Positions 8,750 to 54,437 of a stretch of 64,000 nt of DNA are shown piece after piece. Positions within the stretch are counted from its first letter, which is position 1. Each line of letters begins with the position of its first letter. The notes under the pieces are model-generated. The model worked only from the letters and a program-made list of their open reading frames with translations. It was not told where the DNA came from and did no database searches. The DNA is from a bacterium (lineage in GTDB: Bacteria > Patescibacteriota > Minisyncoccia > Minisyncoccales > UBA10102), in assembly GCA_030647485.1 (NCBI GenBank), contig JAUSJT010000001.1, positions 12,947-76,946 of the forward strand, given 5' to 3'. Made by a program: the position numbers and the translations under genes.

Positions 8750-10486
8750 ATGATCAAGGAAGAAATTAAAAATCTCGTGCGACAAGCTTGTCTGAAGTTA
8801 GGTTTTCCCGTTGAAGAAATTGTGCTCGAACATCCAGAAAACGTGGAACACGGTGATTATTCAACAAACGTTGCTTTGGTTTTGGCAAAACAGCTCGGTA
8901 AAAAACCTCGCGAAGTAGCAGAAAACATAGCAAAAACTATAAACTACAAACTAAGAACTGTAAACTCTATAGAAAAGGTTGAGGTTGCGGGCCCCGGATT
9001 CATCAATTTTTTTCTGTCGAAAGAGTATTTCTTTGACGTTCTTTCTTCTATTCTCAAGAAGAAGGGAAAATATGGTGCAGGCTCCGAAAAGAAAAAGATC
9101 ATTGTAGAATATTCAAGTCCTAATATCGCAAAGCCCTTTGGCATCGGCCATCTTCGCTCAACCCTTATTGGCCAGGCAATCTATAATCTCTATACATTCT
9201 TAGGATATAAGACTATTGGCATTAACTACCCGGGAGACTGGGGGACTCCTCATGGGAAGATTTTGTACCAGTTGAAAGAAAAACTTTTGAAAGGGAAAAC
9301 CGAAAAAGAGAAAAAAGAAATATTAGATAAAATCACTGTCCAGGATTTAGAATCTCTATACGTAGCATTCCACCAGAACACGACTCTCCAAATGGAAGAA
9401 GGGGCACGACTCTGGTTTAAGAAGCTAGAACAAAAAGATACAGAAGCACGAAGCCTTTGGGAGAAGATGAGAGAGGTGAGTTTTAGAGAATTTGAAAGGA
9501 TTTATAGTCTTCTAAATGTGAAGATCGATCATGTTATTGGAGAAAGCTTCTTTGAAGACAAGATGGAGGTTGTGGTGGAGGACTTTAAGAAGAAGGGGCT
9601 TGCACAAGAAAGCCAGGGAGCCTTGATTGTTTCTTTCCCTAATGAAATTCTTCCTCCCGCAATGCTTTTGAAATCAGATGGAGCAACTACATACTTCACA
9701 AGAGACTTGGCGAATATGGAGTACAGAATCTCAAAGTGGAAGCCAGACGCTATTGTTATTGAAACGGGAGTAGAGCAAACCTTACATTTTCAGCAGGTAT
9801 TCCTTGCTTCAAAGCTCATTGGCTACGCAAAAGATGAAGAATTGGTCCATGCCTTTCATGGGTTGTATAGAACAAAAGAAGGAAAATTCTCCACAAGGAA
9901 GGGCCAGACCATTCATTTGGAAGATGTGTTAAGAGAAGCTATAAAAAAAGCCCATGAGATTATTGAGCAATCAGAAACTGTGCGCGGATTGAGTGAGCAG
10001 GAGAAAGCAGAAGTTGCAAAAGCAGTAGGGATCGGAGGAATCAAGTACAATGATCTTTCCCAGCATCCTTCAGGGGATATCGTGTTTGACTGGGGAAAGA
10101 TTCTGAACTTGAAAGGGAATTCAGCTCCCTACCTTCAGTACACGTATGCTAGATGCAAGAGTATCCTCCGCAAGTCCAAACTTAATCCCATTAAGTTTAA
10201 ACTTAATGGAGTTAAGTCATCCCCAGAGGAGATGGCGTTGCTTCGGCTGCTGTATCGATTTGAAGAGGTGGTGCAAGAAGCAGCAGAAAAGTTTTCTCCA
10301 AATCTCGTCTGTAATTTTGTGTTTGATCTTGCTCAACGGTATAACCTGTTTTACAACACTAATCCTGTGTTGAAGGCAGAAACCAAAGAATTAAAAGACT
10401 TTCGTTTGCTACTCACTGCCGCTGTTGCGCAGATTATTAAGAATGGTTTATCCCTTTTGGGTATTGCTGCCCCTGAAAGAATGTGA
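8750..10486 (+). CDS. argS: Arginyl-tRNA synthetase
   Basis: 578 aa. HGDYSTNVAL add-1 domain, class I HIGH-like SPNIAKPFGIGHLRS, and a C-terminal DALR anticodon-binding region. Confidence 0.95.
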   Translation: MIKEEIKNLVRQACLKLGFPVEEIVLEHPENVEHGDYSTNVALVLAKQLGKKPREVAENIAKTINYKLRTVNSIEKVEVAGPGFINFFLSKEYFFDVLSSILKKKGKYGAGSEKKKIIVEYSSPNIAKPFGIGHLRSTLIGQAIYNLYTFLGYKTIGINYPGDWGTPHGKILYQLKEKLLKGKTEKEKKEILDKITVQDLESLYVAFHQNTTLQMEEGARLWFKKLEQKDTEARSLWEKMREVSFREFERIYSLLNVKIDHVIGESFFEDKMEVVVEDFKKKGLAQESQGALIVSFPNEILPPAMLLKSDGATTYFTRDLANMEYRISKWKPDAIVIETGVEQTLHFQQVFLASKLIGYAKDEELVHAFHGLYRTKEGKFSTRKGQTIHLEDVLREAIKKAHEIIEQSETVRGLSEQEKAEVAKAVGIGGIKYNDLSQHPSGDIVFDWGKILNLKGNSAPYLQYTYARCKSILRKSKLNPIKFKLNGVKSSPEEMALLRLLYRFEEVVQEAAEKFSPNLVCNFVFDLAQRYNLFYNTNPVLKAETKELKDFRLLLTAAVAQIIKNGLSLLGIAAPERM

Positions 10487-10942: not shown

Positions 10943-13900
10943 ATGGAGATAAATTTTCCGAAACTTGAAGAAGAAGTTTTAGAGCGCTGGAAAAAGGAAA
11001 AAGCGTTTGAAAGATCAGTTTCTCGTAGAAAGACGGGCAAGCGTTTTGTGTTTTATGAGGGTCCTCCTACTGCAAACGGAAAACCTGGTATTCATCACGT
11101 GCTTTCTCGGGCTTTTAAGGATGTGATACTTCGCTACAAGACGATGAGGGGTTTTTTTGTTGAGAGAAGGGCTGGATGGGATACTCATGGGCTTCCCGTG
11201 GAGCTTCAAATTGAAAAGAAGCTTGGGTTAAAATCAAAGAAAGACATTGAGAAGTACGGAATTGCGCAATTCAACAAAGAGTGCAAGCAATCGGTATGGG
11301 AGTACAAGAAAGAGTGGGAAAACTTAACTGAACGCATGGGGTTTTGGATTGATCTTAAAGATCCCTACGTTACGTATGAGACTTCGTATATTGAAACTTT
11401 GTGGCGGATTATACAGAAATTCTGGCAGAAGGGTTTGTTGTACAAAGGACATAAGGTGATTTTGTATTGTTCACGATGCGGAACTTCTTTGTCTTCACAC
11501 GAGGTGGCACAGGGGTATAAGACCGTTGAAGACACTTCTATATACGTGAAGTTTAAGTTAAAGCCAGGGCAGAGGATAGGTGATTGGGCAACAGATGATT
11601 CCACCTATATCCTTTCTTGGACCACAACTCCCTGGACTTTGCCTGGCAATGTTGCCTTAGCAGTGGGAGAGAAAATCCAGTACGTTCGTGTCCAGCCCAA
11701 GGACATGAATGAAACATACATTCTTGCTAAAGATTTAGTTCGTACAGTTTTTAAGGAGTTTGATGGAGAAGAAGTTAGTTCTTTTAGTGGGAAAGACTTG
11801 ATTGATTTGTCGTATGAACAACTTTTTCCTATACTATCTCTTCGCAACGAGAAATCGCATAAAATCTATGCCGCAGATTTTGTTACAACAACAGACGGCA
11901 CCGGAGTTGTGCATACTGCGGTCATGTACGGGGAGGATGACTACAATCTTGGGGTGAAGGTTGGCCTGCCTCAGCATCACACCGTTACAGAAACTGGCGC
12001 GTTCACTCAAGAGATACCAGGAGGGCTTGCGGGGTTGCCCGTCAGAGTAAAAGAAACAGACGAAAAGATATTTGCATACCTCAAGGAGCATAATATGTTT
12101 CTTGCGACTTTAACGTATTCTCATGAGTATCCTTTCTGTTGGAGATGCTCCACTCCTCTATTGTACTACGCTAAAGACAGCTGGTTTGTGAATATGCAGA
12201 AAGTGAAGCAGGCCTTGATTGCGAATAATAAAAAGATTAATTGGGTCCCCTCTCATCTCAAAGAAGGGAGAATGGGAGAGTGGCTGCGAGAGGTGAAAGA
12301 CTGGGCGTTTTCCCGCGAGCGGTATTGGGGGACTCCATTGCCGATATGGGAATGTAAAAAGTGCGAGCACAGAGAGGTCATAGGTTCCCTTGAGGAGTTG
12401 CGAGAGAAAACCAGATCTTTGAACGTCTACTATTTGCTGCGCCATGGATACTCGGAAAAGCAGAGATTACACATTTCTTCTTCTTGGCCAGAGCCAGTGC
12501 CCATGCCCTTGCTCGCTCAAGGCGTGAAAGAAGCAGAAAAAGCAGCCCGCGCATTAAAGAAGAAAAATATTGATATCATTATCTCTTCAGATCTGCTTCG
12601 CACCAAGCAAACCGCTGAAATTGTAGGGAAAGAGCTTGGCGTTAAGGTTGTTTATGACCCGCTTATTCGAGAAGAAGACGCAGGCATATTTAATGGGAAA
12701 AACATAGAGGAAACAGGCAAGTTTTATCGGAAACCAGGAGAAACGCCCCTTGAGCACTATCTAAGACGATTTGAGATTGCTCGTCCCGAAGGAGAAAGCT
12801 GGCTTGATGTGCAGAAAAGAGCGCATCAGTTCATGAAGAATCTGGAAGAGAAGTATAGGGGCAAGTCAATCCTTATTGTAAGCCATTCTTTGGTTCTTGA
12901 ATTAATTGAGTCCACTATGCTTGGGCTTTCTCGGATTGAATTTGAAAAACGATGGATCAAGACCCATATAAAAAGTGGAGAATGGCGAAAGATCGCTTAT
13001 GCCGCTTTTCCTTACAATGAGAATATGGAAGTTGATCTTCATCGTCCTTACATTGATAATGTTGTGTTTTCATGCCCCGCATGCAAGACAGGCACTATGC
13101 AACGAGTGAAAGAGGTTGCTGACGTATGGTATGATTCTGGAGCCATGCCATTCGCTCAGGCCCACTGGCCTTTCGCGAAAAATCCGAAATCCGAAATCCG
13201 AAATCCGAAACCACCCATACTTTTTCCTGCAGACTATATCGTTGAGGGCATAGACCAGACCAGGGGATGGTTCTACACACTTCTTGCGGTTTCCACACTG
13301 CTTGGATTTAGCGCTCCATACAAAAACGTTATCTCTTTCAGCCATGTTTTGGACGAGAAGGGAGAAAAGATGTCCAAGTCCAAGGACAACGTGGTTGACC
13401 CCTGGGATATGATAAAAAAGTACGGCATTGACGCGGTGCGCTGGTACTTCTTTACCATGAACAATCCTGGGGATCCCAAACTTTTTTCTGAAAAGGATAT
13501 TCAGGAAGTTCTTCGCAAGTTCATACTCACCCTCTGGAATTCTTTTGTGTTCTTGAAAACCTATTGTCCTAAGCTTCGCTTAGGAACTCCTAAGCGAAGC
13601 TTAAGCAGCAACGTCTTAGACGAATGGATTTTATCGCGGCTTGTTGGGACAACTAAAGAAATAACGGAAAAGATGGACACGTATGACGTGACAGGAGCAG
13701 GAAGGAGTTTGGAGAGTTTTGTTATCAACGATCTTTCTCTTTGGTATATTAGGAGATCAAGGACACGATTCCAGAATCCCGAAAGTGTGAAAGATTTTAA
13801 AGAAGCATCGACAACGCTTTCTTTTGTCCTCTTGCAAACATCTAAACTTGCAGCTCCTTTTGTTCCCTTTCTTAGTGAACATATCCATGATGCTTTGCAA

Positions 13901-14494
13901 GCAAAGGGAAGCGTGCACTGGGAAGATTGGCCCTTCGACTCGCCCGCCAAAGGCGGCCTCGCTCAGGACAGGCCTAAGCAAGACAAAAAACTTGAAGCAG
14001 AAATGGCGCTAGTCCGTGATCTTGTCACGAAAGCGCTTGCAGAACGCGCAAAAGCGCAGCTCAAGGTGCGACAGCCCCTGTCCATCCTTATGATCAAGGG
14101 TAGTGGCAAGGAAATCCGAAAAGACCTTTTGACATTACTCAAAGACGAAATAAATGTGAAAGTGGTTGTGTTTGATAAAAATCTCAAGAATGAGGTTGAA
14201 TTGGATACAGCACTGACCCCCCAGCTAAAAGAAGAGGGCCAGGTACGGGAGATATTGAGAAGCATCCAGGGAATGAGAAAGGAAGCAGGATACAAGCCGC
14301 AGAATAAGATTGTTCTTTGGTATTCTGGAGATCAAGAGCTTTGCGCCCTCATTTCAAAAAACGCAGTTATTTTAAAAAAGAGCGTGGGCGCAAAAACCAT
14401 AAAACAAGGCATTCCAGAAAACGGAAAATCTGAAAAAGGAAAACAGATTTTATTCGAGGGCAAATCCCTGTGGCTTAGTATTCGCAAAATTTGA
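10943..14494 (+). CDS. ileS: Isoleucyl-tRNA synthetase (type 2-like) with an inserted histidine-phosphatase (PGAM-family) domain
   Basis: 1183 aa. HIGH region PPTANGKPGIHHVLSR, WAFSRERYWGTPLPIW, DLHRPYID, DVWYDSG, and KMSKS (13369-13383 region, protein KMSKSKDN). Insert at about aa 493-696 has RHG, SSDLLRTKQTAE, GESWLDVQKR and VSHS motifs. Confidence 0.95.
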   Translation: MEINFPKLEEEVLERWKKEKAFERSVSRRKTGKRFVFYEGPPTANGKPGIHHVLSRAFKDVILRYKTMRGFFVERRAGWDTHGLPVELQIEKKLGLKSKKDIEKYGIAQFNKECKQSVWEYKKEWENLTERMGFWIDLKDPYVTYETSYIETLWRIIQKFWQKGLLYKGHKVILYCSRCGTSLSSHEVAQGYKTVEDTSIYVKFKLKPGQRIGDWATDDSTYILSWTTTPWTLPGNVALAVGEKIQYVRVQPKDMNETYILAKDLVRTVFKEFDGEEVSSFSGKDLIDLSYEQLFPILSLRNEKSHKIYAADFVTTTDGTGVVHTAVMYGEDDYNLGVKVGLPQHHTVTETGAFTQEIPGGLAGLPVRVKETDEKIFAYLKEHNMFLATLTYSHEYPFCWRCSTPLLYYAKDSWFVNMQKVKQALIANNKKINWVPSHLKEGRMGEWLREVKDWAFSRERYWGTPLPIWECKKCEHREVIGSLEELREKTRSLNVYYLLRHGYSEKQRLHISSSWPEPVPMPLLAQGVKEAEKAARALKKKNIDIIISSDLLRTKQTAEIVGKELGVKVVYDPLIREEDAGIFNGKNIEETGKFYRKPGETPLEHYLRRFEIARPEGESWLDVQKRAHQFMKNLEEKYRGKSILIVSHSLVLELIESTMLGLSRIEFEKRWIKTHIKSGEWRKIAYAAFPYNENMEVDLHRPYIDNVVFSCPACKTGTMQRVKEVADVWYDSGAMPFAQAHWPFAKNPKSEIRNPKPPILFPADYIVEGIDQTRGWFYTLLAVSTLLGFSAPYKNVISFSHVLDEKGEKMSKSKDNVVDPWDMIKKYGIDAVRWYFFTMNNPGDPKLFSEKDIQEVLRKFILTLWNSFVFLKTYCPKLRLGTPKRSLSSNVLDEWILSRLVGTTKEITEKMDTYDVTGAGRSLESFVINDLSLWYIRRSRTRFQNPESVKDFKEASTTLSFVLLQTSKLAAPFVPFLSEHIHDALQAKGSVHWEDWPFDSPAKGGLAQDRPKQDKKLEAEMALVRDLVTKALAERAKAQLKVRQPLSILMIKGSGKEIRKDLLTLLKDEINVKVVVFDKNLKNEVELDTALTPQLKEEGQVREILRSIQGMRKEAGYKPQNKIVLWYSGDQELCALISKNAVILKKSVGAKTIKQGIPENGKSEKGKQILFEGKSLWLSIRKI
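12419..13030 (+). other. Histidine phosphatase superfamily (branch 1, PGAM-like) domain embedded in IleRS
   Basis: YYLLRHGYSE (RHG at 12440-12448), IIISSDLLRTKQTAEIV, PEGESWLDVQKRAHQF, ILIVSHSLVLE (His codon at 12884-12886). Flanked on both sides by canonical IleRS sequence in the same frame. Confidence 0.75.
13180..13207 (+). repeat. Tandem heptamer AAATCCG x4 inside ileS
   Basis: Read directly from the sequence. Encodes KNPKSEIRNPKP in a surface-loop position just after the conserved AQAHWPF. Confidence 0.9.
13568..13605 (+). repeat. 38-nt double-hairpin palindromic element (CCTAAGC type) in frame in ileS
   Basis: CCTAAGCTTCGCTTAGG-AACT-CCTAAGCGAAGCTTAAG encodes PKLRLGTPKRSLS. 34/38 identical to the element in pth (47901-47940). 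Confidence 0.85.
13929..13974 (+). repeat. TTCGACT...TCGCTCAGG element (expanded copy) in frame in ileS
   Basis: GGCCCTTCGACT-CGCCCGCCAAAGGCGGCC-TCGCTCAGGACAGGCC encodes PFDSPAKGGLAQDRP. Shares its ends with the copies at 39619 and 55170 and is followed by another CCTAAGC. Confidence 0.7.
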
Positions 14495-20581: not shown

Positions 20582-21610
20582 ATGAATAGTGAAAAGGTAT
20601 TGGATATATCCTGGGGGACTATTGTTAAAATCAGCATCACCGCGCTCGTCGTCTACATGCTCTTTTTAACCAGGGGCATTTTTGTATGGGTGCTGTTTGG
20701 CATAATTATTTCTGTTTTATTTGACCCTATTATTGATTTTCTTCAGAAAAGAAGAATCCCGCGCGTCATTAGTACGTTTGCCTTATACCTTGCGGTCTTT
20801 GGCGTAATCGCGTTTATTATCTATTCTGCGGCTCCTGTATTTATTAATGAAATACAGAGATTCTCCCAGTTGTTCCCACGATATTTTGAAACCGTTTCCC
20901 CAATCTTTAAGGGATTGGGCGTAGCCGCGTTTTCCGACATCCAGAGTTTTATTGACGCGGCTTCAGGAGGTATTGAGAAGATAGCTTCAAATGTATTTTC
21001 CGCCCTGTTTTCCATTTTCGGGGGCATATTTGCAACATTCTTCGTGCTTTCCATTGCCATATTCCTTTCCCTGGAAGACAAGGGCATTGAGAGAGCCATT
21101 AGCGTTTTGTTCCCTAAAAAGTATGAGGCATTTGCCTTAGATCTTTGGGCCAAGTCTCAAAAAAAGGTTTCCGCGTGGTTTGCGTCTAGGTTACTCGCCT
21201 CCATATTCGTTGCGGTTGCTTCGTACATTGTTCTTATTCTTTTTAATGCAAAGTACCCGTTCTCGCTGGGGTTAATATCTGGAGTATTAAACTTTATCCC
21301 CATAGTGGGGCCGTTAATCGCAGGAGGGCTCGTTGCTATGATTGTTGCTTTAGACTCGGCGATGAAAGCGGTGTTTGTTATCCTCGCCTTTGTGTTGATC
21401 CAGCAGATTGAGAACAACATTCTTACTCCTATTCTCACCAAGAAGCTTATAGGTCTTTCTCCTGTGGTCGTTTTGATTGCCTTGGCAATAGGAGGAGAAC
21501 TGTGGGGCATGGTAGGCGCAATCCTTGCCATTCCCATTGCGGGTATTCTCTTTGAATTTCTCCGTGATTTCCTCAAGAAACGCAAAGAAGAAAAGACCGA
21601 AACGTCATAA
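20582..21610 (+). CDS. AI-2E family transporter (PerM/UPF0118)
   Basis: 342 aa, multi-TM. Conserved LNFIPIVGPLIAG and PVVVLIALAIGGELWG segments. Confidence 0.85.
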   Translation: MNSEKVLDISWGTIVKISITALVVYMLFLTRGIFVWVLFGIIISVLFDPIIDFLQKRRIPRVISTFALYLAVFGVIAFIIYSAAPVFINEIQRFSQLFPRYFETVSPIFKGLGVAAFSDIQSFIDAASGGIEKIASNVFSALFSIFGGIFATFFVLSIAIFLSLEDKGIERAISVLFPKKYEAFALDLWAKSQKKVSAWFASRLLASIFVAVASYIVLILFNAKYPFSLGLISGVLNFIPIVGPLIAGGLVAMIVALDSAMKAVFVILAFVLIQQIENNILTPILTKKLIGLSPVVVLIALAIGGELWGMVGAILAIPIAGILFEFLRDFLKKRKEEKTETS

Positions 21611-21615
21611 TTTTC

Positions 21616-21689
21616 GAACTATGTATTTTCTTTGCGCTTTACCCCACCTGCTGGCGGGGCCCTACGCGTCTGCAGAAAATACATAGTTC
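21616..21689 (+). repeat. Copy A of a 72-74-nt hairpin repeat (conserved 52-nt core, variable complementary outer arms)
   Basis: Perfect 16-bp outer stem GAACTATGTATTTTCT / AGAAAATACATAGTTC around core TTGCGCTTTACCCCACCTGCTGGCGGGGCCCTACGCGTCTGC. Ends 11 nt before the rsmI ATG. Confidence 0.85.
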
Positions 21690-21700
21690 TCAATTTCATT

Positions 21701-22721: not shown

Positions 22722-24191
22722 ATGACAAAGTTTTATATCACAACAGCAATCCCATATGTTAATGCCCCTCCGCATATCGGGCATGCTTTAGAGTTTGTAC
22801 AGACCGACGTCATTGCACGGTATCATCGCGAGAAGGGCGAGGAGGTTTTACTATTGTCTGGAAGCGACGAGAATGCCCTAAAGAATGTTCAGGCGGCCGA
22901 GAAAGCCGGAGTTCCCGTTCAGCAGTTTATTGATGAGAATGCCAGGTCTTTTGTTGAGTTAGCAGAAAAACTCAATATACAGTTTGATGTATTTCAGAAG
23001 GGGAGTAGCAAAGATCATCACACGTCGTCTCAGAAGCTCTGGGAGTTGTGCCAGAAAGCAGGGGACATCTACAAAAAGTCGTATGAAGGATTGTATTGCG
23101 TTGGCTGTGAAGCGTTTTATACGCCAGACGAGCTTAATAAAAATCAAGAATGCGTTGAGCATCCAGGCAGAAAGCTTGAAAGGGTTTCAGAAGAGAATTA
23201 TTTCTTTAAGCTTTCAAAGTATCAAGACAAGCTTATCAATCTCTTGGGAAAAGACGAGTTGCGCATTGTTCCCTCAACAAGGAAGAATGAAGTAATATCT
23301 TTCTTAAAACAGCCGTTGCAGGACATTAGCATTTCGCGTTCAAATGAACGAGCAAAAAACTGGGGCGTTCCAGTTCCAGGGGATGATAGTCAGAGAATAT
23401 ACGTTTGGTTTGACGCCCTCAATATTTACCAATCCGGAATTGGGTTTGGGCTCAATGAAGAAAAATACAAGAAATGGTGGCCGGCAGATGTACATGTGAT
23501 AGGGAAGGGCATCATTCGTTTCCATGCGATATACTGGCCAGCATTTCTTTTGTCTGCAGGATTGCCTTTGCCAAAAACTCTATTTGTTCATGGATATTTA
23601 ACGGTTGGCGGGCAGAAAATGTCAAAGAGTTTAGGAAATGTAGTAGATCCATTTCCTTTGATTGAAAAATACGGAGCTGACGCCGTACGGTATTTCTTGC
23701 TGCGGGAAATTCCTTCCGCAGAAGATGGAGACTTCACCGAGGAAAAATTCGTTGAGAGATACAACGCAGATTTAGCGTCGGGTCTAGGGAATTTGGTTGC
23801 GAGAGTGCTTACCTTAAGCACGAAATTCGAAATTCGAAATTCGAAATCACCGCTTCAGCGGGATCTCGTAACGGCGGGACAAATTCAAAATTCAAATCTT
23901 CAGAAACTTCTGGAAGAAACACGAGAAAAAACAGAGAAAGCTTTGGATGATTTTCAATTTAGTTCTGCGCTTGAGGCGATATGGGAAGTTATTCATTTTT
24001 GCGACAAATACATTGAAGAAAAGAAGCCTTGGACAGAATCAGAAGGTCAGAAAAATGTTCTTGGTGATTTGTTGTGTGCCCTTCAGGAGATAGCAAATTC
24101 CTTAGCCCCATTTCTCCCGGAAACTTCAGAAAAAATCAAAGTTCAGCTTTCCGGAGGAGAAAGAGTTTCTCTTTTTCCCCGTCTTGATTAA
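22722..24191 (+). CDS. metG: Methionyl-tRNA synthetase (no C-terminal tRNA-binding appendage)
   Basis: TTAIPYVNAPPHIGHALE (HIGH) and KMSKSLGN. Zinc knuckle CVGCEAFY..ECVEHPG. Confidence 0.95.
   Translation: MTKFYITTAIPYVNAPPHIGHALEFVQTDVIARYHREKGEEVLLLSGSDENALKNVQAAEKAGVPVQQFIDENARSFVELAEKLNIQFDVFQKGSSKDHHTSSQKLWELCQKAGDIYKKSYEGLYCVGCEAFYTPDELNKNQECVEHPGRKLERVSEENYFFKLSKYQDKLINLLGKDELRIVPSTRKNEVISFLKQPLQDISISRSNERAKNWGVPVPGDDSQRIYVWFDALNIYQSGIGFGLNEEKYKKWWPADVHVIGKGIIRFHAIYWPAFLLSAGLPLPKTLFVHGYLTVGGQKMSKSLGNVVDPFPLIEKYGADAVRYFLLREIPSAEDGDFTEEKFVERYNADLASGLGNLVARVLTLSTKFEIRNSKSPLQRDLVTAGQIQNSNLQKLLEETREKTEKALDDFQFSSALEAIWEVIHFCDKYIEEKKPWTESEGQKNVLGDLLCALQEIANSLAPFLPETSEKIKVQLSGGERVSLFPRLD
23823..23843 (+). 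repeat. Tandem heptamer AAATTCG x3 (plus AAATTCA x2 at about 23881-23894) inside metG
   Basis: Read directly from the sequence. Encodes FEIRNSKSP...QIQNSNLQ in the linker of the anticodon-binding domain. Confidence 0.9.
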
Positions 24192-24346
24192 ACTTAGTCT
24201 CGCTAAGTTTCCCGCAGGAGATTCTCTTGGAGTTTTTGAGGAGCGCTTGACGGAGCTAGATTTTTGTGCCAGAATCTTTACCAAACAGAGAAAATCGAAG
24301 TAGCCTTCGATTCTCTGGAATAGCACCTACAAAAAAGGAGAAAGAC

Positions 24347-26696: not shown

Positions 26697-26739
26697 AACT
26701 TAGAGTGAAACTTAACTCGGTTAAGTTTAGTAATCTTTT

Positions 26740-26761
26740 TAGCATTGCCATGGCAATGCTA
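26740..26761. repeat. 22-nt perfect palindrome TAGCATTGCCATGGCAATGCTA
   Basis: Read directly from the sequence. The core CATTGCCATGGCA(A/G)TG recurs at 47603-47618. An AAACTTAAC-TCG-GTTAAGTTT hairpin lies at 26708-26728. Confidence 0.8.
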
Positions 26762-26845
26762 GAGAGATGGGGTATTTGGGTTGATTTATGTTATATCATT
26801 TAGAATAGACAAAAAGAGGGAGATTGGGTACAATCAGATATCCAA

Positions 26846-37516: not shown

Positions 37517-38841
37517 AAACACCACTACAAGCATCAGACCCCAAGGTGTATGAGCTTATAGAAGCAGAGCTTCAGCGCAGGAAAAAGGGCCTGGAAATGA
37601 TTCCTTCCGAGAACCATACATCTCCTGCGGTTCTTGAGGCTCTAGGATCCATACTTACCGATAAATATTCTGAAGGATATCCTAGTAGGAGATACTACGG
37701 AGGGAATGAGTTTATAGACAAAGTAGAAAACCTTGCCATAGAACGGGCCAAGCAGGCATTTGGAGTGCCGTATGCCAATGTACAGCCGTATTCTGGATCT
37801 CCAGCAAATTTAGCGGTTCACGTCGCAGTATGCAAGCCAGGGGATGTGGTTATGGGGTTAGACCTAACTCACGGCGGGCATTTAACACATGGGTCTAAGG
37901 TAAGCGTTACGGGGCAGTACTACAAAAGCGTGCAGTATCATGTTACTCCCGAAGGGCGTATTGATATTGAAGAGGTAAGAAGGCTGGCAACAGAACACAA
38001 TCCAAGATTACTATGGGTTGGGTATACCGCATATCCTCGTGAATTCCCGTTTGAAGAATTCTCAAAAATAGCAGATGGGGTTGGAGCGTATCTTGCAGCC
38101 GACATCTCGCATATCGCAGGGTTGGTGTTAGGAGGAAGCCATGCAAGCCCAGTTCCTTTTGCGCATATCGTTACCACAACAACGCACAAGACCCTTCGGG
38201 GTCCACGAGGTGCTATTGTCATGGTAACAGAAAAAGGATTGAAGAAAAATCCTGAACTTGGAGAGAAAATAGACAAAGCGATATTCCCTGGTTTGCAGGG
38301 GGGGCCGCACAACCACCAAACCGCTGCAATCGCAGTAGCTCTTGCTGAAGCTATGAAGCCTGAGTTCAAGGATTATGCGTATCAGGTAGTGAGTAATGCA
38401 AAGGCGTTGGCCCAAGGACTTATGGAGAACGGCTTAAAGTTGGTATCTAACGGGACAGACACTCATCTCATGCTTATTGATTTAACTCCCTATGGAAAAG
38501 GAATGGGAGTGTTTGCAGAGAAAGCATTGGATCTTGCAGGCATAACACTCAACAAGAACACCATACCAGGGGATCCTTCTTCTCCTTTTTATCCAAGCGG
38601 CATACGGCTCGGCACGCCAGCCATTACAACCCGGGGCATGAAAGAAAAAGAAATGGACATGGTGGCTAGCTGGATAATCCAGGTTATAGGAGAAATCAAA
38701 GCGTATCAGCTTCCAGAATCAAAAGATGAACGCAAGCCATACATTGCTTCTTTTGAGAAAGACATGGCAAAGAACCCTGCTGTTCTAAAGGTAAGGGGTG
38801 AAATAGAGAAACTGTGTGAGGGTTTTCCCCTGCCTTACTGA
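37513..38841 (+). CDS. glyA: Serine hydroxymethyltransferase
   Basis: LEMIPSENHTSPAVLEA and TTTTHKTLRGPRG (PLP lysine). Confidence 0.95.
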   Translation: MKTPLQASDPKVYELIEAELQRRKKGLEMIPSENHTSPAVLEALGSILTDKYSEGYPSRRYYGGNEFIDKVENLAIERAKQAFGVPYANVQPYSGSPANLAVHVAVCKPGDVVMGLDLTHGGHLTHGSKVSVTGQYYKSVQYHVTPEGRIDIEEVRRLATEHNPRLLWVGYTAYPREFPFEEFSKIADGVGAYLAADISHIAGLVLGGSHASPVPFAHIVTTTTHKTLRGPRGAIVMVTEKGLKKNPELGEKIDKAIFPGLQGGPHNHQTAAIAVALAEAMKPEFKDYAYQVVSNAKALAQGLMENGLKLVSNGTDTHLMLIDLTPYGKGMGVFAEKALDLAGITLNKNTIPGDPSSPFYPSGIRLGTPAITTRGMKEKEMDMVASWIIQVIGEIKAYQLPESKDERKPYIASFEKDMAKNPAVLKVRGEIEKLCEGFPLPY

Positions 38842-38849
38842 CATGCTAC

Positions 38850-38921
38850 GACTATTTAATTTTCTTTGCGCTTTACCCCACTGCGGTGGGGCCCTACGCG
38901 TCTTCAGAAAATCAAATAGTC
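38850..38921 (+). repeat. Copy B of the 72-74-nt hairpin repeat
   Basis: Arms GACTATTTAATTTTCT / AGAAAATCAAATAGTC (15 of 16 bp). Core is identical to copy C. Ends 13 nt before the folD ATG. Confidence 0.85.
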
Positions 38922-38934
38922 TTCGCATACTTTT

Positions 38935-39875: not shown

Positions 39876-40535
39876 ATGGAAACGGCAACCCTTAAGCAGG
39901 CAGGAAAGGTGTTGGAGTTGATTGCACAGAGCGAAAGGTCGGGTGAGTGGATACAGAACCACCTGATTGGTTCTGGAGCCCTTTCAGATCTTTTGGCTGT
40001 GGATAATCTGGCTGGAATAAGTCGGGATGCCCGTCGGCGTGTCCTTGGACTTTCGGCACTCAACCCGTCGCTCTTGGAAGAGATTGGTATTGTCACCATC
40101 CCGGCGACGGTCGAGGCATTCGTGGCACGCGAGAAATTCGTAGTTGGCAGTGCCAAAGCGAAGATTTCCTGGATCGGCAGTAACTTCGAGGCGTGGTTTC
40201 TCGGTAGGACCGAAGAACCGTCCGTTGAGACGACGCTTTGCTATGCGAAGCTCGTAAAATCCTCGGTTGACGGTCCGATCCTTGTAGAACTCGGCGACAA
40301 GGCCGAAACCGCGCTCGCCCAGATTTGGGCGCTCATGGATCTTCAGCCGAACGGCGAGGAAGGTGTGTTGCTCATCAATGGGTGGGCCAACATCTTCTAT
40401 GCCCTGGATGCAAACGGCGAGCTCCGCGCGGTGCACGTCTACTGGCTCGAGGGTGGCTGGCTCGTGCATGCGGGTCCGGTCTCGAGCCCGTACAGGTGGT
40501 CTGGTGAGCACCGGGTGTTCTCCCGCAATTCCTAA
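39876..40535 (+). CDS. DGR target (variable) protein, C-terminal VR. The N-terminal ~180 aa have no recognised domain and no signal peptide
   Basis: 219 aa, GC-rich, SD GAAGGAGG upstream. The last 37 codons are the VR (ELRAVHVYWLEGGWLVHAGPVSSPYRWSGEHRVFSRN). Confidence 0.85.
   Translation: METATLKQAGKVLELIAQSERSGEWIQNHLIGSGALSDLLAVDNLAGISRDARRRVLGLSALNPSLLEEIGIVTIPATVEAFVAREKFVVGSAKAKISWIGSNFEAWFLGRTEEPSVETTLCYAKLVKSSVDGPILVELGDKAETALAQIWALMDLQPNGEEGVLLINGWANIFYALDANGELRAVHVYWLEGGWLVHAGPVSSPYRWSGEHRVFSRNS
40419..40528 (+). repeat. DGR variable repeat (VR)
   Basis: 110-nt gapless match to 40798-40907 with 18 mismatches, all opposite a TR adenine. Confidence 0.9.
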
Positions 40536-40540
40536 AACTT

Positions 40541-40555
40541 GGGATCCTAGATCCC
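40541..40555 (+). promoter_or_regulatory. Short hairpin GGGATC-CTA-GATCCC 5 nt after the target stop (candidate DGR homing hairpin)
   Basis: Read directly from the sequence. Present downstream of the VR but absent downstream of the TR. Confidence 0.4.
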
Positions 40556-40564
40556 TAAACAAGT

Positions 40565-40603
40565 GCCCCGTGTTGGTTTACCAACACGGGGCGTTTTCTT
40601 TTC
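40565..40603 (+). terminator. Rho-independent terminator of the DGR target gene
   Basis: 12-bp stem GCCCCGTGTTGG / CCAACACGGGGC, loop TTTA, then GTTTTCTTTTCG. Confidence 0.8.
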
Positions 40604-40797
40604 GTACAATATTTGATACGATAAAATGGATTCATAAGAACGGAACGGTTACGGCTTTTCCGACGTGGATTCAGAATGCGTTGCATTCTACAAAAATACA
40701 GGAATTGGTACTGGGAGCTAGGGAGTTTTGAGACTCCGAATACGATTCAATCCTGAGAGTATTCAAAGGATGGTGGCAGAGATGGCTTCTGGTATGA

Positions 40798-40907
40798 GAG
40801 CTCCGCGCGGTGAACGTCAACTGGAACGAGGATGGCTGGAACGTGAATGCGAATCCGGTCACGAACCCGAACAGGTGGAATGATGAGAACCGGGTGTTCT
40901 CCCGAAA
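40798..40907 (+). repeat. DGR template repeat (TR)
   Basis: Non-coding copy of the VR. In the VR frame it reads ELRAVNVNWNEDGWNVNANPVTNPNRWNDENRVFSRN (AAC-rich). 18 of its 30 adenines differ in the VR. Followed by hairpin CTCCCGCT...AGCGGGAG + TTTTATTTT (about 40918-40950). Confidence 0.9.
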
Positions 40908-40927
40908 CTGCTGTATTCTCCCGCTCT

Positions 40928-41266
40928 TTATATAGCGGGAGTTTTATTTTCAAATCCTTTTCTCCATCCGCCAAGCATCCTCCCTATTTCATTTAAGTGT
41001 TCAGAAAGAGCGATATATTTTTTGCTATCTAACGCTTTTATTTCCCACGCAACCTGCAGAAAGAACTTGAGCACGTCAAGCTTAAGAAGCCCTCGTTTAA
41101 TATGCGGCAGTTTCTCTTGTTTTGAGAGATAGCTCGCGATGACTATGCTTTCTAATACTTCAACAAAGAAAGAATCAATTTTTTCTCCCAACGTGTACAG
41201 TGAGGTTTTCGGAAAATGTGGAAGGTATGCCTGCCAAAGTTTGTATGTTGCAACTAATTTTTGCAA
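40928..41266 (-). CDS. avd: Avd-like accessory protein (four-helix-bundle / 23S rRNA-intervening-sequence protein family), TTG start
   Basis: 112 aa. FPKTSLYTLGEKIDSFFVEVLESIVIA ... LSEHLNEIGRMLGGWRK is typical of this family. Lies between TR and RT but on the opposite strand. Confidence 0.7.
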   Translation of the reverse strand: MQKLVATYKLWQAYLPHFPKTSLYTLGEKIDSFFVEVLESIVIASYLSKQEKLPHIKRGLLKLDVLKFFLQVAWEIKALDSKKYIALSEHLNEIGRMLGGWRKGFENKTPAI

Positions 41267-41282
41267 AACAGATAAACCCGTT

Positions 41283-41292
41283 GGGGGGGGGG
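41283..41292. repeat. G10 homopolymer tract in the 46-nt avd-RT divergent spacer
   Basis: ttGGGGGGGGGGct read directly from the sequence, 21 nt upstream of the RT ATG. Confidence 0.9.
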
Positions 41293-41312
41293 CTTACCTG
41301 CAAAGAGTTTGT

Positions 41313-42308
41313 ATGAAAATTCAGTTGAGACATACGTTTGAAGATATTATCAGCATGGAAAACCTTTTGGAGGCATGGAAAGAGTTTGTAAAAGGCAAAA
41401 GAGGGAAGAAGGATGTGCAGGAGTTCTCTTTGCGCCTAATAGATAACATTCTATCTCTCCGCAGAGATCTTGCCAATGGCACATATAAGCATGGAGGATA
41501 TAGGGCATTTAACATTTCAGACCCCAAGCCAAGAAGTATCCATAAAGCAACTGTTCGAGATAGATTATTGCATCACGCCATCTATCGCATCCTCTACTCA
41601 TTCTTTGATAAAACTTTCATTTCGGATTCTTTTTCTTGCAGGAAAGATAAAGGAACGCACAGAGCATTGAATAGATTTCGGGGATTTGCGTATAAGGTAA
41701 GTCAAAACAATATAAGAACCTGCTGGGTGCTTAAATGCGACATCAGGAGATTCTTTGATAATATTGACCACAAAATTTTAATACAAGTTCTTGAAACATA
41801 TATTCCCGACAAAAACATTATGTGGCTTTTGAAAAACGTGATAGATAGTTTCTCAAAAAATACGCTTGGCATTGGTCTTCCACTTGGGAATTTAACCTCG
41901 CAACTGTTCGTGAATATTTATATGAACGAGTTTGATCAGTTTGTAAAATACAAACTCAAAGAAAAATATTATCTTCGTTATGCAGATGATTTCGTTCTTC
42001 TTTCAGAGAGCCGAAATTCACTAAAACAGCAAGTTGAACCAGTGCGCAATTTTTTATACGAGAAACTCGGCCTTGAGCTACATCCTCAAAAGCTCTTTAT
42101 TAAAACCTTTGCTTCTGGGGTTGATTTTCTCGGCTGGGTACATTTCTTTGGTCATCGGACGTTGCGAACCACCACAAGGAGGCGTATGATGAAAAAACTT
42201 GAGGCAAGCCAAAATCCTCAGACACTTAGTTCTTATTTAGGGCTTTTGTGCTATGGAAACACACGTAAACTCCAGAGAGAAGTTCTAAAACAATACTTTT
42301 GTGAATAG
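41313..42308 (+). CDS. DGR reverse transcriptase
   Basis: 331 aa from MKIQLRH. GLPLGNLTSQLFVNIY (GNLTSQ at 41886-41903), YLRYADDFVLL (YADD at 41979-41990), no maturase/En domains. The track start at 41139 overlaps avd antisense and was rejected. Confidence 0.9.
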   Translation: MKIQLRHTFEDIISMENLLEAWKEFVKGKRGKKDVQEFSLRLIDNILSLRRDLANGTYKHGGYRAFNISDPKPRSIHKATVRDRLLHHAIYRILYSFFDKTFISDSFSCRKDKGTHRALNRFRGFAYKVSQNNIRTCWVLKCDIRRFFDNIDHKILIQVLETYIPDKNIMWLLKNVIDSFSKNTLGIGLPLGNLTSQLFVNIYMNEFDQFVKYKLKEKYYLRYADDFVLLSESRNSLKQQVEPVRNFLYEKLGLELHPQKLFIKTFASGVDFLGWVHFFGHRTLRTTTRRRMMKKLEASQNPQTLSSYLGLLCYGNTRKLQREVLKQYFCE

Positions 42309-47499: not shown

Positions 47500-47618
47500 C
47501 CGTACTCTTGTATAACAAAAACCCCCATATTTTCATAGAGGGCGTCTTGTTTCAATATGCATCAAGATTCTGCTGCAGCAAGAATTTGAGTTATCTCTTT
47601 ATCATTGCCATGGCAGTG

Positions 47619-48173
47619 TTAAGAAGATAGTTTTGCAAGCGCTTGAATTGCGTTTTGCAAAGCAGATTGCAAAAGAGGGAGCTCTGATTTTTGAAAGGGC
47701 CTTAGTACAAACTCCTCAACATTTGCTGGTTTTCCCCTTTCTGGCTGAATGCCTATCCGTATTCTTATAAAGTCCTTTGTTCCAAGAGACTGAATAATGG
47801 AGCCTACGCCTTTGTGCCCCGCAGATCCCGATCCCTTTGAGACTTTTACTTTCCCAAGCGGTATGTCAATGTCATCATGGATTACCACGAGTTCTTGTCT
47901 GCCTAAGCTTAGCTTAGGAGTACCTAAGCTAAGCTTAGGCAGAAGCGCCTTTACGGCTTTGCCGGAGTTGTTCATAAACGTCTGGGGTTTCACTAGTACT
48001 ACCTTGGCGAGACCAAGGATCCCCTCGGAGATGAGAGATGAATGTTTTTTGGAAAGTTTGAAAGGTGGAAACTCATTGGCTTTTGCAAACTCATCCAACG
48101 CCATAAACCCCATATTATGTGGGGTATTATCATATTCTTTTCCCGGATTTCCGAGTCCTACAATTAGAAACAT
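47619..48173 (-). CDS. pth: Peptidyl-tRNA hydrolase
   Basis: MFLIVGLGNPGKEYDNTPHNMGF and GSGSAGHKGVGSI. I prefer the ATG at 48173. The track start (TTG, 48182) adds MNY. Confidence 0.9.
   Translation of the reverse strand: MFLIVGLGNPGKEYDNTPHNMGFMALDEFAKANEFPPFKLSKKHSSLISEGILGLAKVVLVKPQTFMNNSGKAVKALLPKLSLGTPKLSLGRQELVVIHDDIDIPLGKVKVSKGSGSAGHKGVGSIIQSLGTKDFIRIRIGIQPERGKPANVEEFVLRPFQKSELPLLQSALQNAIQALAKLSS
47901..47940 (-). repeat. 40-nt double-hairpin palindromic element (CCTAAGC type) in frame in pth
   Basis: GCCTAAGCTTAGCTTAGG-AGTA-CCTAAGCTAAGCTTAGGC is a perfect palindrome apart from the central 4 nt. It encodes PKLSLGTPKLSLG in a loop that is variable in Pth. Confidence 0.9.
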
Positions 48174-48180
48174 ATAGTTC

Positions 48181-48252
48181 AAACTCTATCTTTTCTTTGC
48201 GCTTTACCCCACTGCGGTGGGGCCCTACGCGTCTTCAGAAAAGCCAGAGTTT
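48181..48252 (+). repeat. Copy C of the 72-74-nt hairpin repeat
   Basis: Arms AAACTCTATCTTTTCT / AGAAAAGCCAGAGTTT (14 of 16 bp). Core is identical to copy B. Lies in the divergent pth/lepB spacer, in the same orientation as lepB. Confidence 0.85.
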
Positions 48253-48308
48253 TCACTATTATATCATTTATCTTGCAAAAAGATGAAATTCTGGTATACT
48301 GGCAAAGT

Positions 48309-53459: not shown

Positions 53460-54437
53460 CTATTTGAGTTCGGGTTGGAAAAAGGAATTTAAGCGGATCA
53501 CGCGGGGAACAACCTGCGTGATTTGTTTTTCTTTCACCGTGACTTCGAGAAGCAACCCCCGCATGGTTTCTGGGGAGAATCCTTGGTCAAAGACAAGGTT
53601 TCCCAAACTCCAGGTAATCCAGCCGTTTTTGTATTGTTCAACGGGCTGAACCACGTGAGGATGGTGCCCTATAACAATATCGGCGCCAGCATCAATCGCG
53701 CTCTTTGCAATGAGTACTTGTGTCTTATTCGGCTGCGTTTGGTATTCTTCTCCAAAATGCACAGAAACAACAAGAATATCTGATTGTTGTTTCGCCGCTC
53801 GTATGCCTTCTTGAAATTTGGGAAGAGTTCCTTCGTCTACCCAAGCTATGCCAGGAGTGTTTTCTGTTGCTTGCCACAGGGGAGAACCAAGATTGGTATA
53901 CCCAAGAAACCCTATCTTTGTCCCCCTCACTTCTTTTATAACAGGAGAATAAACTCTTTCTTTATCTGCGCCTCCTCCAACATAAGCGATTTCTGCTTCT
54001 TTGAGGCGTGCCAGAGAGTCCAGAAATGCTTCTGGCCCATAATCTAAACTATGATTATTCGCAACAGAAACAACATCAAATCCAGCAAACATAAGCCCTT
54101 CAATTGCTTTGGGGTCTGCGCGGAAAGAGTATATGCTTCCAAGGTTTTGTCCTTTGTTGGAGATGACGCTTTCTAGATTTCCAAAAACAAGATCTGCTTT
54201 TTGCAAGGTGTCTGCAATGCGTAGGAACGGCCACCTCCAATCGTTATGTTGTCTGATGTAAAACTCTACGCCGCGGTCTAGCATAATGTCCCCCGCGAAT
54301 AACAAGGTTATTGCATCTCCCTCTGGGTCCAGAGGAACAAGGGACGCCTGAAATTTGCCGTGCCAGAACATAAGTGATCCCGCAAAAAGGATGCTGTATA
54401 CGGTTATTGCAGCAGTAAATAGGACGAGGCGTTCCAT
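53460..54437 (-). CDS. CapA-family (PGA_cap) metallophosphatase-like protein
   Basis: LLFAGDIMLDRGV, GNLESV, SVANNHSLDYG, HFGEEY, IIGHHPHVVQP. N-terminal TM helix. Confidence 0.85.
   Translation of the reverse strand: MERLVLFTAAITVYSILFAGSLMFWHGKFQASLVPLDPEGDAITLLFAGDIMLDRGVEFYIRQHNDWRWPFLRIADTLQKADLVFGNLESVISNKGQNLGSIYSFRADPKAIEGLMFAGFDVVSVANNHSLDYGPEAFLDSLARLKEAEIAYVGGGADKERVYSPVIKEVRGTKIGFLGYTNLGSPLWQATENTPGIAWVDEGTLPKFQEGIRAAKQQSDILVVSVHFGEEYQTQPNKTQVLIAKSAIDAGADIVIGHHPHVVQPVEQYKNGWITWSLGNLVFDQGFSPETMRGLLLEVTVKEKQITQVVPRVIRLNSFFQPELK

What the first reader, a model, noticed from the sequence alone, without database searches (positions are those of the whole stretch)
13568..13605. A 38-40-nt double-hairpin palindromic element inserted in frame into two essential genes (ileS and pth)
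ileS carries CCTAAGCTTCGCTTAGG-AACT-CCTAAGCGAAGCTTAAG. On its coding strand, pth (47901-47940) carries CCTAAGCTTAGCTTAGG-TACT-CCTAAGCTAAGCTTAGG. By my count 34 of 38 positions are identical, and two of the four differences are compensatory within the palindrome (C..G versus A..T). Both copies are in frame and encode near-identical peptides (PKLRLGTPKRSLS and PKLSLGTPKLSLG) in loop regions that vary between orthologues. The CCTAAGC seed occurs again at 13972. Related AAACTTAG/CTAAGTTT-type hairpins sit in intergenic DNA (about 24192-24212, 26708-26728). This behaviour parallels the Rickettsia palindromic elements, which are selfish palindromes tolerated inside ORFs, but it occurs here in an unrelated, very small genome.
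Basis: seen in the sequence. Interest (0 to 1): 0.6.

Follow-up and report, generated by a model that had tools for sequence, protein, structure and literature searches.

The report
In-frame palindromic REP-type repeats in Parcubacteria
Two essential genes of this tiny-genome bacterium carry copies of one roughly 40-base perfect palindrome that is translated as a harmless protein loop; relatives place it in the REP/REPIN class of repeats, which a dedicated tyrosine transposase is thought to spread, here sitting mostly inside genes rather than between them.

Summary
Window 13568-13605 (ileS) and 47902-47939 (pth) share a 38-nt palindrome, 34/38 identical. The two loop differences are compensatory.

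It is a DNA-level repeat family. One other Parcubacteria MAG (JAQBTT01) holds 14 identical copies, 10 of them inside intact housekeeping genes. Two of those sit at the same ileS and pth codons as in the window. Only one reading frame is stop-free, the same on both strands, and every genic copy uses it.

Across genomes the sequence changes while the palindrome is kept: 13 of 21 pairs show double-sided changes, and the peptide differs. The predicted fold is one long hairpin, not two small ones.

In JAQBTT01 the same 17-nt units flank a Y1/HUH transposase gene. Its best structural match is the E. coli REP-associated tyrosine transposase (4er8). In three other genomes the homologous gene is flanked by that genome's own unit variant.

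The element is therefore best read as a compact REP doublet (REPIN) of a RAYT-type system. Intragenic REP dimers are already described in other phyla. New here are the lineage (CPR), the missing GTAG/CGTC tag, the 21-nt phasing and the mostly genic location.

Mobility was not shown. No RAYT gene lies within the window itself.

The parts
13568..13605 (+). Compact palindromic doublet (two 17-nt units, 4-nt spacer AACT) in frame in ileS. It encodes PKLRLGTPKRSLS. The palindrome is slightly decayed: one C.A mismatch near the end.
   Evidence: The same codon position is occupied in JAQBTT ileS (L010), L020 and L021.
47898..47943 (-). Compact palindromic doublet in frame in pth. The core is 47902-47939 and the palindrome extends to TCTG...CAGA. 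It encodes (L)PKLSLGTPKLSLG(R).
   Evidence: The same site is occupied in JAQBTT pth (L001) and in L019, L022-L025 with co-varying sequences.
10943..14494 (+). Host gene ileS (1183 aa). The element lies in the variable loop at the start of the anticodon-binding domain.
   Evidence: Pfam; alignment to 1ile; orthologue alignment
47619..48173 (-). Host gene pth (184 aa, identical to protein P0001). The element forms a low-confidence coil loop, residues 78-93, between helix 67-77 and strand 94-105.
10178..10219 (+). In-frame 42-nt doublet of a second 21-nt hairpin family (AAACTTAA-N5-TTAAGTTT) inside argS. It encodes KLNPIKFKLNGVKS. It is possibly the same kind of element; relatedness to the first family is not shown.
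24190..24210 (+). Singlet of the second hairpin family, overlapping the stop codon of metG.
26708..26728 (+). Singlet of the second hairpin family, just after tatD.

Best explanation
The element is a compact REP doublet (REPIN-type): two 17-nt stem-loop units in inverted orientation with a 4-nt spacer, usually extended by TG...CA to 42 nt (14 codons). It belongs to a repeat family of a Parcubacteria (CPR) lineage that is associated with a vertically inherited, RAYT-like Y1/HUH tyrosine transposase. By analogy with characterised RAYTs (inferred), that enzyme recognises the hairpin on single-stranded DNA and copies or moves it. Because 17+4 = 21 nt, both units fall in the same frame. That frame is the only stop-free one and is identical on both strands. 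Copies that land in phase in a tolerant surface loop therefore survive and are translated as a flexible Pro/Gly-rich loop (PKLSLG-x-PKLSLG). The ileS and pth copies are old insertions shared with related genomes. They have evolved in place while staying palindromic and tracking each genome's own unit variant. That implies either selection on the hairpin (transposase recognition) or hairpin-templated and inter-copy correction. SHOWN: the repeat family; the frame property; orthologous sites; covariation; loop location; the transposase gene flanked by the same units in relatives. INFERRED: transposase-mediated mobility; translation; the homogenising mechanism; presence of the transposase in the window's own genome.
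For: The family exists. There are 14 identical doublets in MAG JAQBTT01 and 4 more metagenome loci. All genic copies lie in the single open frame. Ten of the 14 JAQBTT copies are inside intact genes: pth, ileS, rnhB, uvrC, tsaD x2, cca, a Mur ligase, dprA and one unknown. The site is the same in window and JAQBTT for ileS and pth. L009/L015 share a Mur-ligase site and L006/L016 share a tsaD site. Palindromy is kept while sequence and peptide change: the variants are GCTTAGC, GCTTCGC, GCTCGGC, GCGAGGC, AAATCTCGTTT, AGACTTGGTCT and AAACTCGGTTT. For the long hairpin, 91.7% of cells are paired, 13/21 pairs change on both sides, and 0/500 shuffles reach this. The 'loop' columns 14-16/35-37 are paired in 80/81 cells. 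Transposase: L011:4228-4947 matches Y1_Tnp PF01797 (E 2.3e-8, above the cut-off). Its only NCBIfam hit is REP-associated tyrosine transposase. The HUH histidines and two tyrosines are invariant. The best fold match is 4er8_A, the E. coli RAYT bound to a REP hairpin (E 4.4e-6, TMt 0.70). The gene is flanked by the same units. In L026, L027 and L028 the homologous gene is flanked by that genome's own variant, and the L026 and L027 variants match in-gene copies seen in L022, L025 and L023. Synteny is conserved: DUF3276, RAYT, ComF-like, DprA, ComM. Loop location. Literature: REPIN definition and compensatory changes (PMC3116915); single-copy vertical RAYTs (PMC5581495); intragenic REP dimers (PMC3733652).
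Against: No RAYT gene lies in the 64-kb window: 64 of the 65 candidate ORFs were scanned and no transposase family was hit. The window has only two copies and no singlets. The units lack the GTAG or CGTC tag that defines described REP superfamilies. The NCBIfam score (26 bits) is far below the equivalog cut-off (80), and a profile search of PDB sequences found nothing. No clean empty site was found, so the inserted length and the absence of a target duplication are inferred from flanks only. The compact in-gene form lacks the TTATCC(A/C)CA spacer seen next to units near the transposase gene, so it may not itself be a substrate. The covariation counts include 14 non-independent copies from one genome. 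L022/L026 and L025/L027 are matched by variant only, not shown to be the same genomes.
Confidence: 0.72

Rival explanations
1. The palindrome is a host-functional nucleic-acid signal and the transposase relative is domesticated. The signal could be an mRNA hairpin that serves as an RNase III or ribosome-pausing site, or a DNA site for a binding protein. Selection on that function, not selfish spread, would keep the palindrome at conserved sites.
For: Orthologous sites are kept over deep divergence with perfect or near-perfect pairing. Predicted mRNA stems are 17-22 bp. The intergenic form has a spacer equal to the DnaA-box consensus TTATCCACA, or one mismatch from it, in four genomes, even where the hairpin sequence differs. 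The RAYT-like gene is syntenic and strongly conserved (58-85% identity over the top 120 hits). The literature argues that RAYTs are co-opted (PMC5581495).
Against: Host genes are functionally unrelated. Close relatives lack the element at some sites: PGA_cap in the window versus L025, tsaD site 1 in L016, and most IleS orthologues. Decayed copies persist (L025 pth, window ileS). No function was tested. This reading does not exclude transposase-mediated origin.
Confidence: 0.15
2. The repeat is an RPE-like or MITE-like element moved by an unrelated (for example DDE) transposase, or is no longer mobile. On this reading the nearby Y1 gene is a coincidence.
For: In-frame insertion into housekeeping genes resembles RPEs (PMC10969869). 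Most copies end in TG...CA (columns 5-6/45-46). The compact form lacks the spacer motif found near the Y1 gene.
Against: No direct target-site duplication flanks any copy. The element is 38-42 nt, against 105-150 bp for RPEs. In four genomes the Y1 gene is flanked by that genome's own unit variant, which is hard to explain by coincidence. No other transposase family was hit in the window ORFs scanned.
Confidence: 0.08
3. Palindromy is maintained purely by mutation bias: intra-strand template switching at quasi-palindromes and gene conversion between copies. On this reading there is no selection and no transposase activity after an ancient spread.
For: Compensated changes occur in all four half-stems at once (L019, L023). 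Palindromy sometimes extends into variable flanks: column 4/47 is paired in 16/27 copies with four pair types. Within-genome uniformity is seen at old sites (JAQBTT ileS and pth are identical to the other 12 copies).
Against: This explains maintenance, not how one 38-nt sequence entered at least 10 unrelated genes. The two loop-flip types (TAA..TTA x9, TTA..TAA x4) coexist in one genome. It is compatible with, rather than opposed to, the main explanation.
Confidence: 0.05

Closest known systems
REP / REPIN repeats with RAYT (REP-associated tyrosine transposase), as in E. coli and Pseudomonas
   Same: The unit is a short stem-loop. Inverted doublets fold into one long hairpin. Compensatory changes occur across the hairpin. 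A single Y1/HUH transposase gene is flanked by the same units. That gene is syntenic and conserved like a housekeeping gene. Unit sequence is genome-specific.
   Different: There is no GTAG or CGTC tag. The spacer is only 4 nt and the total only 38-42 nt. Most copies are inside genes and in frame (10 of 14). Copy number is low (tens). The intergenic form has a DnaA-box-like spacer. The host is a CPR bacterium. The transposase is about 238 aa and scores below the NCBIfam RAYT cut-off.
Intragenic GTAG/CGTC REPs (Di Nocera et al. 2013, PMC3733652), found in Opitutus terrae, Rickettsia conorii, Thauera and Xanthomonas
   Same: REP dimers lie inside ORFs and encode short peptides. Hosts include DNA-repair genes, DNA ligase and tRNA synthetases. 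The site is shared between related species (recB in Xanthomonas).
   Different: Those REPs carry GTAG or CGTC tags and are a minority of mostly extragenic families. Here genic copies are the majority and the dimer is phased at 21 nt.
Rickettsia palindromic elements (RPE)
   Same: Palindromic repeats are inserted in frame into unrelated housekeeping genes and are tolerated in surface loops.
   Different: RPEs are 105-150 bp, fall into ten families, are restricted to Rickettsia, and have no dedicated transposase identified. The present element is about 40 nt and has a candidate transposase.

Membership tests
REP/REPIN-RAYT | Short palindromic unit that forms a stem-loop | tested here: met
   The 17-nt unit has a 7-bp stem and a 3-nt loop. 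98.4% of cells are paired across 27 copies.
REP/REPIN-RAYT | Inverted doublet that folds into one long hairpin (REPIN), with compensatory changes | tested here: met
   The MFE structure is a single 17-22 bp hairpin. 13/21 pairs change on both sides, and the loop columns pair in 80/81 cells.
REP/REPIN-RAYT | Repetitive and dispersed in the genome | tested here: met
   MAG JAQBTT01 has 14 doublets on 11 contigs plus at least 7 singlets. The 64-kb window has only 2 doublets.
REP/REPIN-RAYT | Y1/HUH transposase gene flanked by the same units | tested here: met
   Seen in L011, L026, L027 and L028, each with that genome's own unit variant. No such gene lies within the window itself. The rest of the window's genome could not be searched.
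REP/REPIN-RAYT | The transposase belongs to the RAYT clade | tested here: inconclusive
   Pfam Y1_Tnp scores 34.6 bits, above the cut-off of 23. NCBIfam REP_Tyr_transpos is the only hit but scores 26 bits against a cut-off of 80. The best fold hit is 4er8_A, the E. coli RAYT. The PDB sequence profile search found no hit.
REP/REPIN-RAYT | Conserved GTAG (or CGTC) tetranucleotide at the foot of the hairpin | tested here: not met
   Neither motif nor its complement occurs in the units or their immediate flanks. A different conserved motif, TTATCC(A/C)CA, adjoins intergenic units.
REP/REPIN-RAYT | Extragenic location | tested here: not met
   10 of 14 JAQBTT copies and both window copies lie inside intact ORFs.
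REP/REPIN-RAYT | Transposase is single-copy and vertically inherited | tested here: inconclusive
   The neighbours are the same in three genomes, and homologues are 58-85% identical at about 238 aa. Copy number per genome was not countable.
Rickettsia palindromic elements | Length about 105-150 bp and membership of RPE-1 to RPE-10 | tested here: not met
   The element is 38-42 nt. RPE sizes are from PMC3184786 and PMC10969869. No sequence comparison with RPE consensus sequences was run.
Rickettsia palindromic elements | In-frame insertion into unrelated protein-coding genes | tested here: met
MITE (derived from a DDE insertion sequence) | Terminal inverted repeats plus a direct target-site duplication | tested here: not met
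   The flanks are inverted (TG...CA), not direct. No duplication is seen in 27 copies.
Translational bypass or spliced intervening sequence | The insert is skipped or removed, so its frame and stop codons do not matter | tested here: not met
   Every genic copy sits in the one stop-free frame. The spaced form, which is closed in all six frames, is found only between genes. No direct RNA or protein data were available.

The most novel reading that the evidence does not exclude
In ultra-small CPR genomes with almost no intergenic space, a REPIN-RAYT pair may have moved into coding space. On this reading the repeat evolved a 21-nt phase and a single stop-free frame shared by both strands, so that it can live inside essential genes as a translated loop. 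It is inherited vertically at fixed sites. A RAYT-dependent (or hairpin-templated) conversion process keeps it matched to each genome's master sequence. The DnaA-box-like spacer of the intergenic form would hint at a link to replication control.
Probability: 0.3. Interest if true: 0.75.

Novelty: new variant of a known kind. Interest (0 to 1): 0.52.

Why it matters
REPINs are regarded as almost exclusively extragenic, and their long-term persistence is explained by the availability of non-coding space. A lineage in which most copies sit in frame inside essential genes would extend that picture. Here those genes include aminoacyl-tRNA synthetases, Pth, TsaD, UvrC, RNase HII and DprA. The copies stay at orthologous codons across genomes while they co-vary with the units that flank a RAYT-like gene. 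It would also give a tractable case for asking how palindromes are kept perfect. Practically, these 13-14-residue inserts explain odd loop insertions in CPR housekeeping proteins, and they are useful markers for lineage typing and MAG binning.

Tried and rejected

(2) The exact IleS protein is not on record.

(3) Viral contigs hold neither the exact nor the generalised pattern, so there is no sign of a phage vector.

(4) Rfam finds only a tRNA in the window, so the element is not a described RNA family.

(5) No transposase or RAYT family was hit in the 64 of 65 window ORFs scanned.

(6) The search for a clean empty site failed. All insertion sites lie in variable loops, and the PGA_cap presence/absence pair (window versus L025) differs by 10 codons without sharp edges. 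The inserted length of 42 nt and the lack of a target duplication therefore remain inferences.

(7) The 'double hairpin' model was rejected. The loop nucleotides always pair across the two halves, and the MFE structure is one long stem.

(8) A protein-level motif was rejected. The peptides differ (PKLSLG/PKLSLG, PKLRLG/PKRSLS, PKLGLG/PKPSLG, PKSRLG/PKRDLG, PRLGLG/PRPSLG) exactly as the reverse complement predicts.

(9) An assembly artefact was rejected. The pth locus was recovered 100% identical from a separately produced assembly of run SRR13727527, and the family occurs in NCBI, JGI, ENA and Logan data.

(10) A profile of the transposase against PDB sequences gave nothing. Fold comparison was needed.
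Full report
OBSERVATION. The ileS copy is at 13568-13605. The pth copy is at 47902-47939, one base off at each end. On the coding strands they are 34/38 identical. Two of the four differences (positions 10 and 29) face each other in the full palindrome. The repeat finder lists the pair as its longest inverted match (41 nt, 90%). The 17-nt half-site occurs 9 times against 0.53 expected. Both lie in intact ORFs. One is IleS, 1183 aa (Pfam). The other is Pth, 184 aa and identical to a database protein annotated aminoacyl-tRNA hydrolase. The encoded peptides are PKLRLGTPKRSLS and PKLSLGTPKLSLG.

The window comes from a Parcubacteria-type CPR bacterium. The nearest Pth relatives are named Wildermuthbacteria, Parcubacteria or Patescibacteria. 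The same pth locus was recovered 100% identical from a separately produced assembly of run SRR13727527.

IT IS A DNA REPEAT FAMILY. A scan of 185,579 species-representative genomes for the full pattern found one other genome, MAG JAQBTT01 'casp150-mb.125'. It has 14 copies on 11 contigs, all CCTAAGC-TWA-GCTTAGG-AGCT-CCTAAGC-TWA-GCTTAGG. The metagenome scan added four loci. The element has stop codons in two frames. The third frame is open and, because the sequence is its own reverse complement, is the same on both strands. Every copy that lies in a long ORF uses that frame.

Ten of the 14 JAQBTT copies interrupt intact genes: pth, ileS, RNase HII, UvrC, TsaD (twice), CCA-adding enzyme, a Mur ligase, DprA and one unknown. 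Four are at gene boundaries or between genes, and one of these supplies a stop codon.

The JAQBTT ileS and pth copies sit at the same codon positions as the window's copies. L015 shares its Mur-ligase site with JAQBTT, and L016 shares tsaD site 2 with JAQBTT. Presence is not universal. Most IleS orthologues lack the element, and more distant Pth orthologues have a 3-residue loop. L016 lacks the first tsaD copy. The window's PGA_cap gene (53460-54437) lacks a copy that its close relative L025 carries.

THE PALINDROME, NOT THE PEPTIDE, IS CONSERVED. Pth orthologues carry different peptides at the site: PKSRLGAPKRDLG, PRLGLGAPRPSLG, PKRGLGFPKPRLG and PKRSLGNPKLRL. Their DNA shows that the second arm is, or nearly is, the reverse complement of the first. 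Examples are CCTAAATCTCGTTTAGG/CCTAAACGAGATTTAGG (L019), CCTAGACTTGGTCTAGG/CCTAGACCAAGTCTAGG (L023), and GCGAGGC/GCCTCGC (L022).

On an alignment of 27 copies the long-hairpin model has 91.7% of cells paired. Thirteen of 21 pairs have changes on both sides, and no shuffle of 500 reaches these values. The three 'loop' columns of each small hairpin pair with each other in 80 of 81 cells, with three or four pair types each. The small-hairpin model is also satisfied but cannot explain those columns. The minimum-energy fold is one stem of 17-22 bp.

The flanking TG...CA is paired in about three quarters of copies, giving a 42-nt unit of 14 codons. The caveat is that 14 rows come from one genome, so the counts overstate independent events. 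The between-genome variants are the informative part.

Copies within a genome resemble each other. All 14 in JAQBTT are alike. Both copies in L025 share TAAACTCGGTTTA. L015 and L016 share TCG/CGA. This holds even at sites that are older than the split between genomes, which calls for some homogenising process.

WHERE THE INSERTS SIT. In Pth the element adds 7 residues to the loop before the ELVVIHDD strand, relative to 7y52. In an AlphaFold model (pLDDT 91.5) residues 78-93 are coil, and the block 81-90 has the lowest confidence, 53. In IleS the element occupies the variable loop at the start of the anticodon-binding domain and is not longer than the loop of T. thermophilus 1ile.

THE TRANSPOSASE LINK. 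While listing stray half-elements I found a cluster on JAQBTT contig 3 (locus L011). A 239-aa ORF (L011:4228-4947) is preceded by an inverted doublet of the units and followed by a singlet. Three tandem singlets lie upstream.

The ORF matches Pfam Y1_Tnp above the cut-off. Its only NCBIfam match is 'REP-associated tyrosine transposase', below that model's cut-off. In 23 homologues the HUH histidines (H93, H95) and Tyr149 and Tyr153 are invariant. The 54-residue spacing from H95 to Tyr149 equals that from H61 to Tyr115 in the E. coli enzyme (PMC3479197). A sequence profile finds nothing in the PDB. The predicted structure (pLDDT 82.9), however, has the E. coli RAYT-REP complex 4er8_A as its best match, ahead of the ISDra2 and IS608 transposases.

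The protein has thousands of homologues. The top 120 are 58-85% identical, about 238 aa, and named Parcubacteria lineages where a name exists. In three genomes it lies in the same neighbourhood: DUF3276/PurA-like, transposase, ComF-like, DprA, ComM.

Its flanks carry that genome's own unit variant. L026 has GCGAGGC/GCCTCGC, the variant in L022 pth. L027 has AAACTCGGTTT, as in L025, and AGACTTGGTCT, as in L023. L028 has a different palindrome, ACTTGCCCTCGGCAAGT, which also occurs as a doublet inside a giant ORF.

These are the hallmarks of REP/REPIN-RAYT systems as defined in the literature: inverted REP doublets that form hairpins with compensatory changes (PMC3116915), and single-copy, vertically inherited RAYTs (PMC5581495).

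TWO FORMS. Next to the transposase gene and in other intergenic places the units are separated by TTATCC(A/C)CA. This form has stops in all six frames. The in-gene form has a 4-nt spacer, so that 17+4 = 21 nt keeps both units in the open frame. That simple arithmetic explains why only the compact form is found in genes. The spacer motif equals the textbook DnaA-box consensus (my knowledge). I could not test whether that is meaningful.

MECHANISM. Shown: a dispersed repeat family; an ORF-compatible design; orthologous persistence; palindrome-preserving evolution; loop location; and physical association of the units with a RAYT-like gene in four relatives.

Inferred: that the enzyme mobilises the units as single-stranded hairpins, as shown in vitro for E. 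coli TnpA-REP; that the copies are translated (supported by the exclusive use of the open frame); and that palindromy and within-genome uniformity result from selection for recognition and/or hairpin-templated and inter-copy correction.

Not established: a RAYT gene in the window's own genome (none in the window); the exact inserted length; and any current mobility.

COMPARISON WITH THE KNOWN. The closer family, however, is REP/REPIN. Di Nocera et al. 2013 already reported REPs inside genes in several phyla. These were often dimers encoding 20-30 residues, in DNA-repair genes, DNA ligase and tRNA synthetases, sometimes at the same site in related species. The same authors equated R. conorii RPE-4/6 with CGTC-tagged REPs. 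The kind is therefore known.

What differs here:
- the host lineage: no paper in the library joins RAYT/REPIN with CPR terms;
- the absence of GTAG/CGTC tags;
- the very compact, phased doublet;
- the predominance of genic copies;
- a divergent, longer transposase in a competence-gene neighbourhood.

VERDICT. It is a new variant of a known kind, of moderate interest.

Noticed in passing
window 39876-42308: A diversity-generating retroelement. The variable repeat is at 40419-40533 (3' end of ORF 39876-40535), the template repeat at 40798-40912, and a reverse transcriptase (RVT_1, E 7e-26) at 41139-42308. Eighteen of 20 mismatches are adenines in the template copy.
   Followed up: partly
window 12431-12952 (IleS residues 497-670): IleS carries an inserted histidine-phosphatase domain (His_Phos_1, E 2.4e-33). 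It is absent from the 991-aa JAQBTT orthologue, but another relative (P0226) lists the same domain combination.
   Followed up: no
window 10178-10219, 24190-24210, 26708-26728; L017:352-372: A second 21-nt hairpin family, AAACTTAR-N5-YTAAGTTT (4 matches against 0.12 expected). It includes an in-frame doublet inside argS (KLNPIKFKLNGVKS; hairpin -16.3 kcal/mol, z -6.8) and singlets at the 3' ends of metG, tatD and a ligA-like gene. The ArgRS loop is not longer than in E. coli 4oby. A relative (P0362) has a similar peptide.
   Followed up: partly
L011:2940-4190, L002:6989, L026:16, L027:8879, L028:9574, 10754 and 14888: Intergenic units are joined by TTATCCACA, TTATCCCCA, TTATTCACA or TTTTCCACA. 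These are the DnaA-box consensus or one mismatch from it. The motif is present even in the genome whose hairpin sequence is different. In the window the motif is at chance frequency.
   Followed up: partly
window 21606-21690, 38840-38925, 48171-48255: A structured intergenic repeat in three copies. The core is TTTTCTTTGCGCTTTACCCCACTGCGGTGGGGCCCTACGCGTCTTCAGAAAA, and the outer arms co-vary between copies. It lies upstream of rsmI, folD and lepB-like genes. There is no Rfam match.
   Followed up: no
window 13178-13213 (ileS) and 23821-23843 (metG): In-frame heptanucleotide tandem repeats: (AAATCCG)x4 giving NPKSEIRNPK, and (CGAAATT)x3. Similar 7-residue periodic peptides (SEIRNPK, NSKFQIP, SKFEIRN) fill variable loops of IleS, ArgRS and TsaD in many related genomes.
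   Followed up: no
window 26733-26768 and 47593-47628: A 36-nt palindrome-containing repeat (ATCTTTTTAGCATTGCCATGGCAATGCTAGAGAGAT, 86% between copies) lies downstream of tatD and of pth (D17/I4).
   Followed up: no
L004:550-587: In JAQBTT one element copy provides the TAA stop codon of the transketolase N-terminal subunit gene and fills the gap to the C-terminal subunit gene.
   Followed up: yes
L011:3104-3615: The NYN-domain gene next to the transposase locus has an in-frame TAG early in the reading frame. It may be a pseudogene or have a later start.
   Followed up: no
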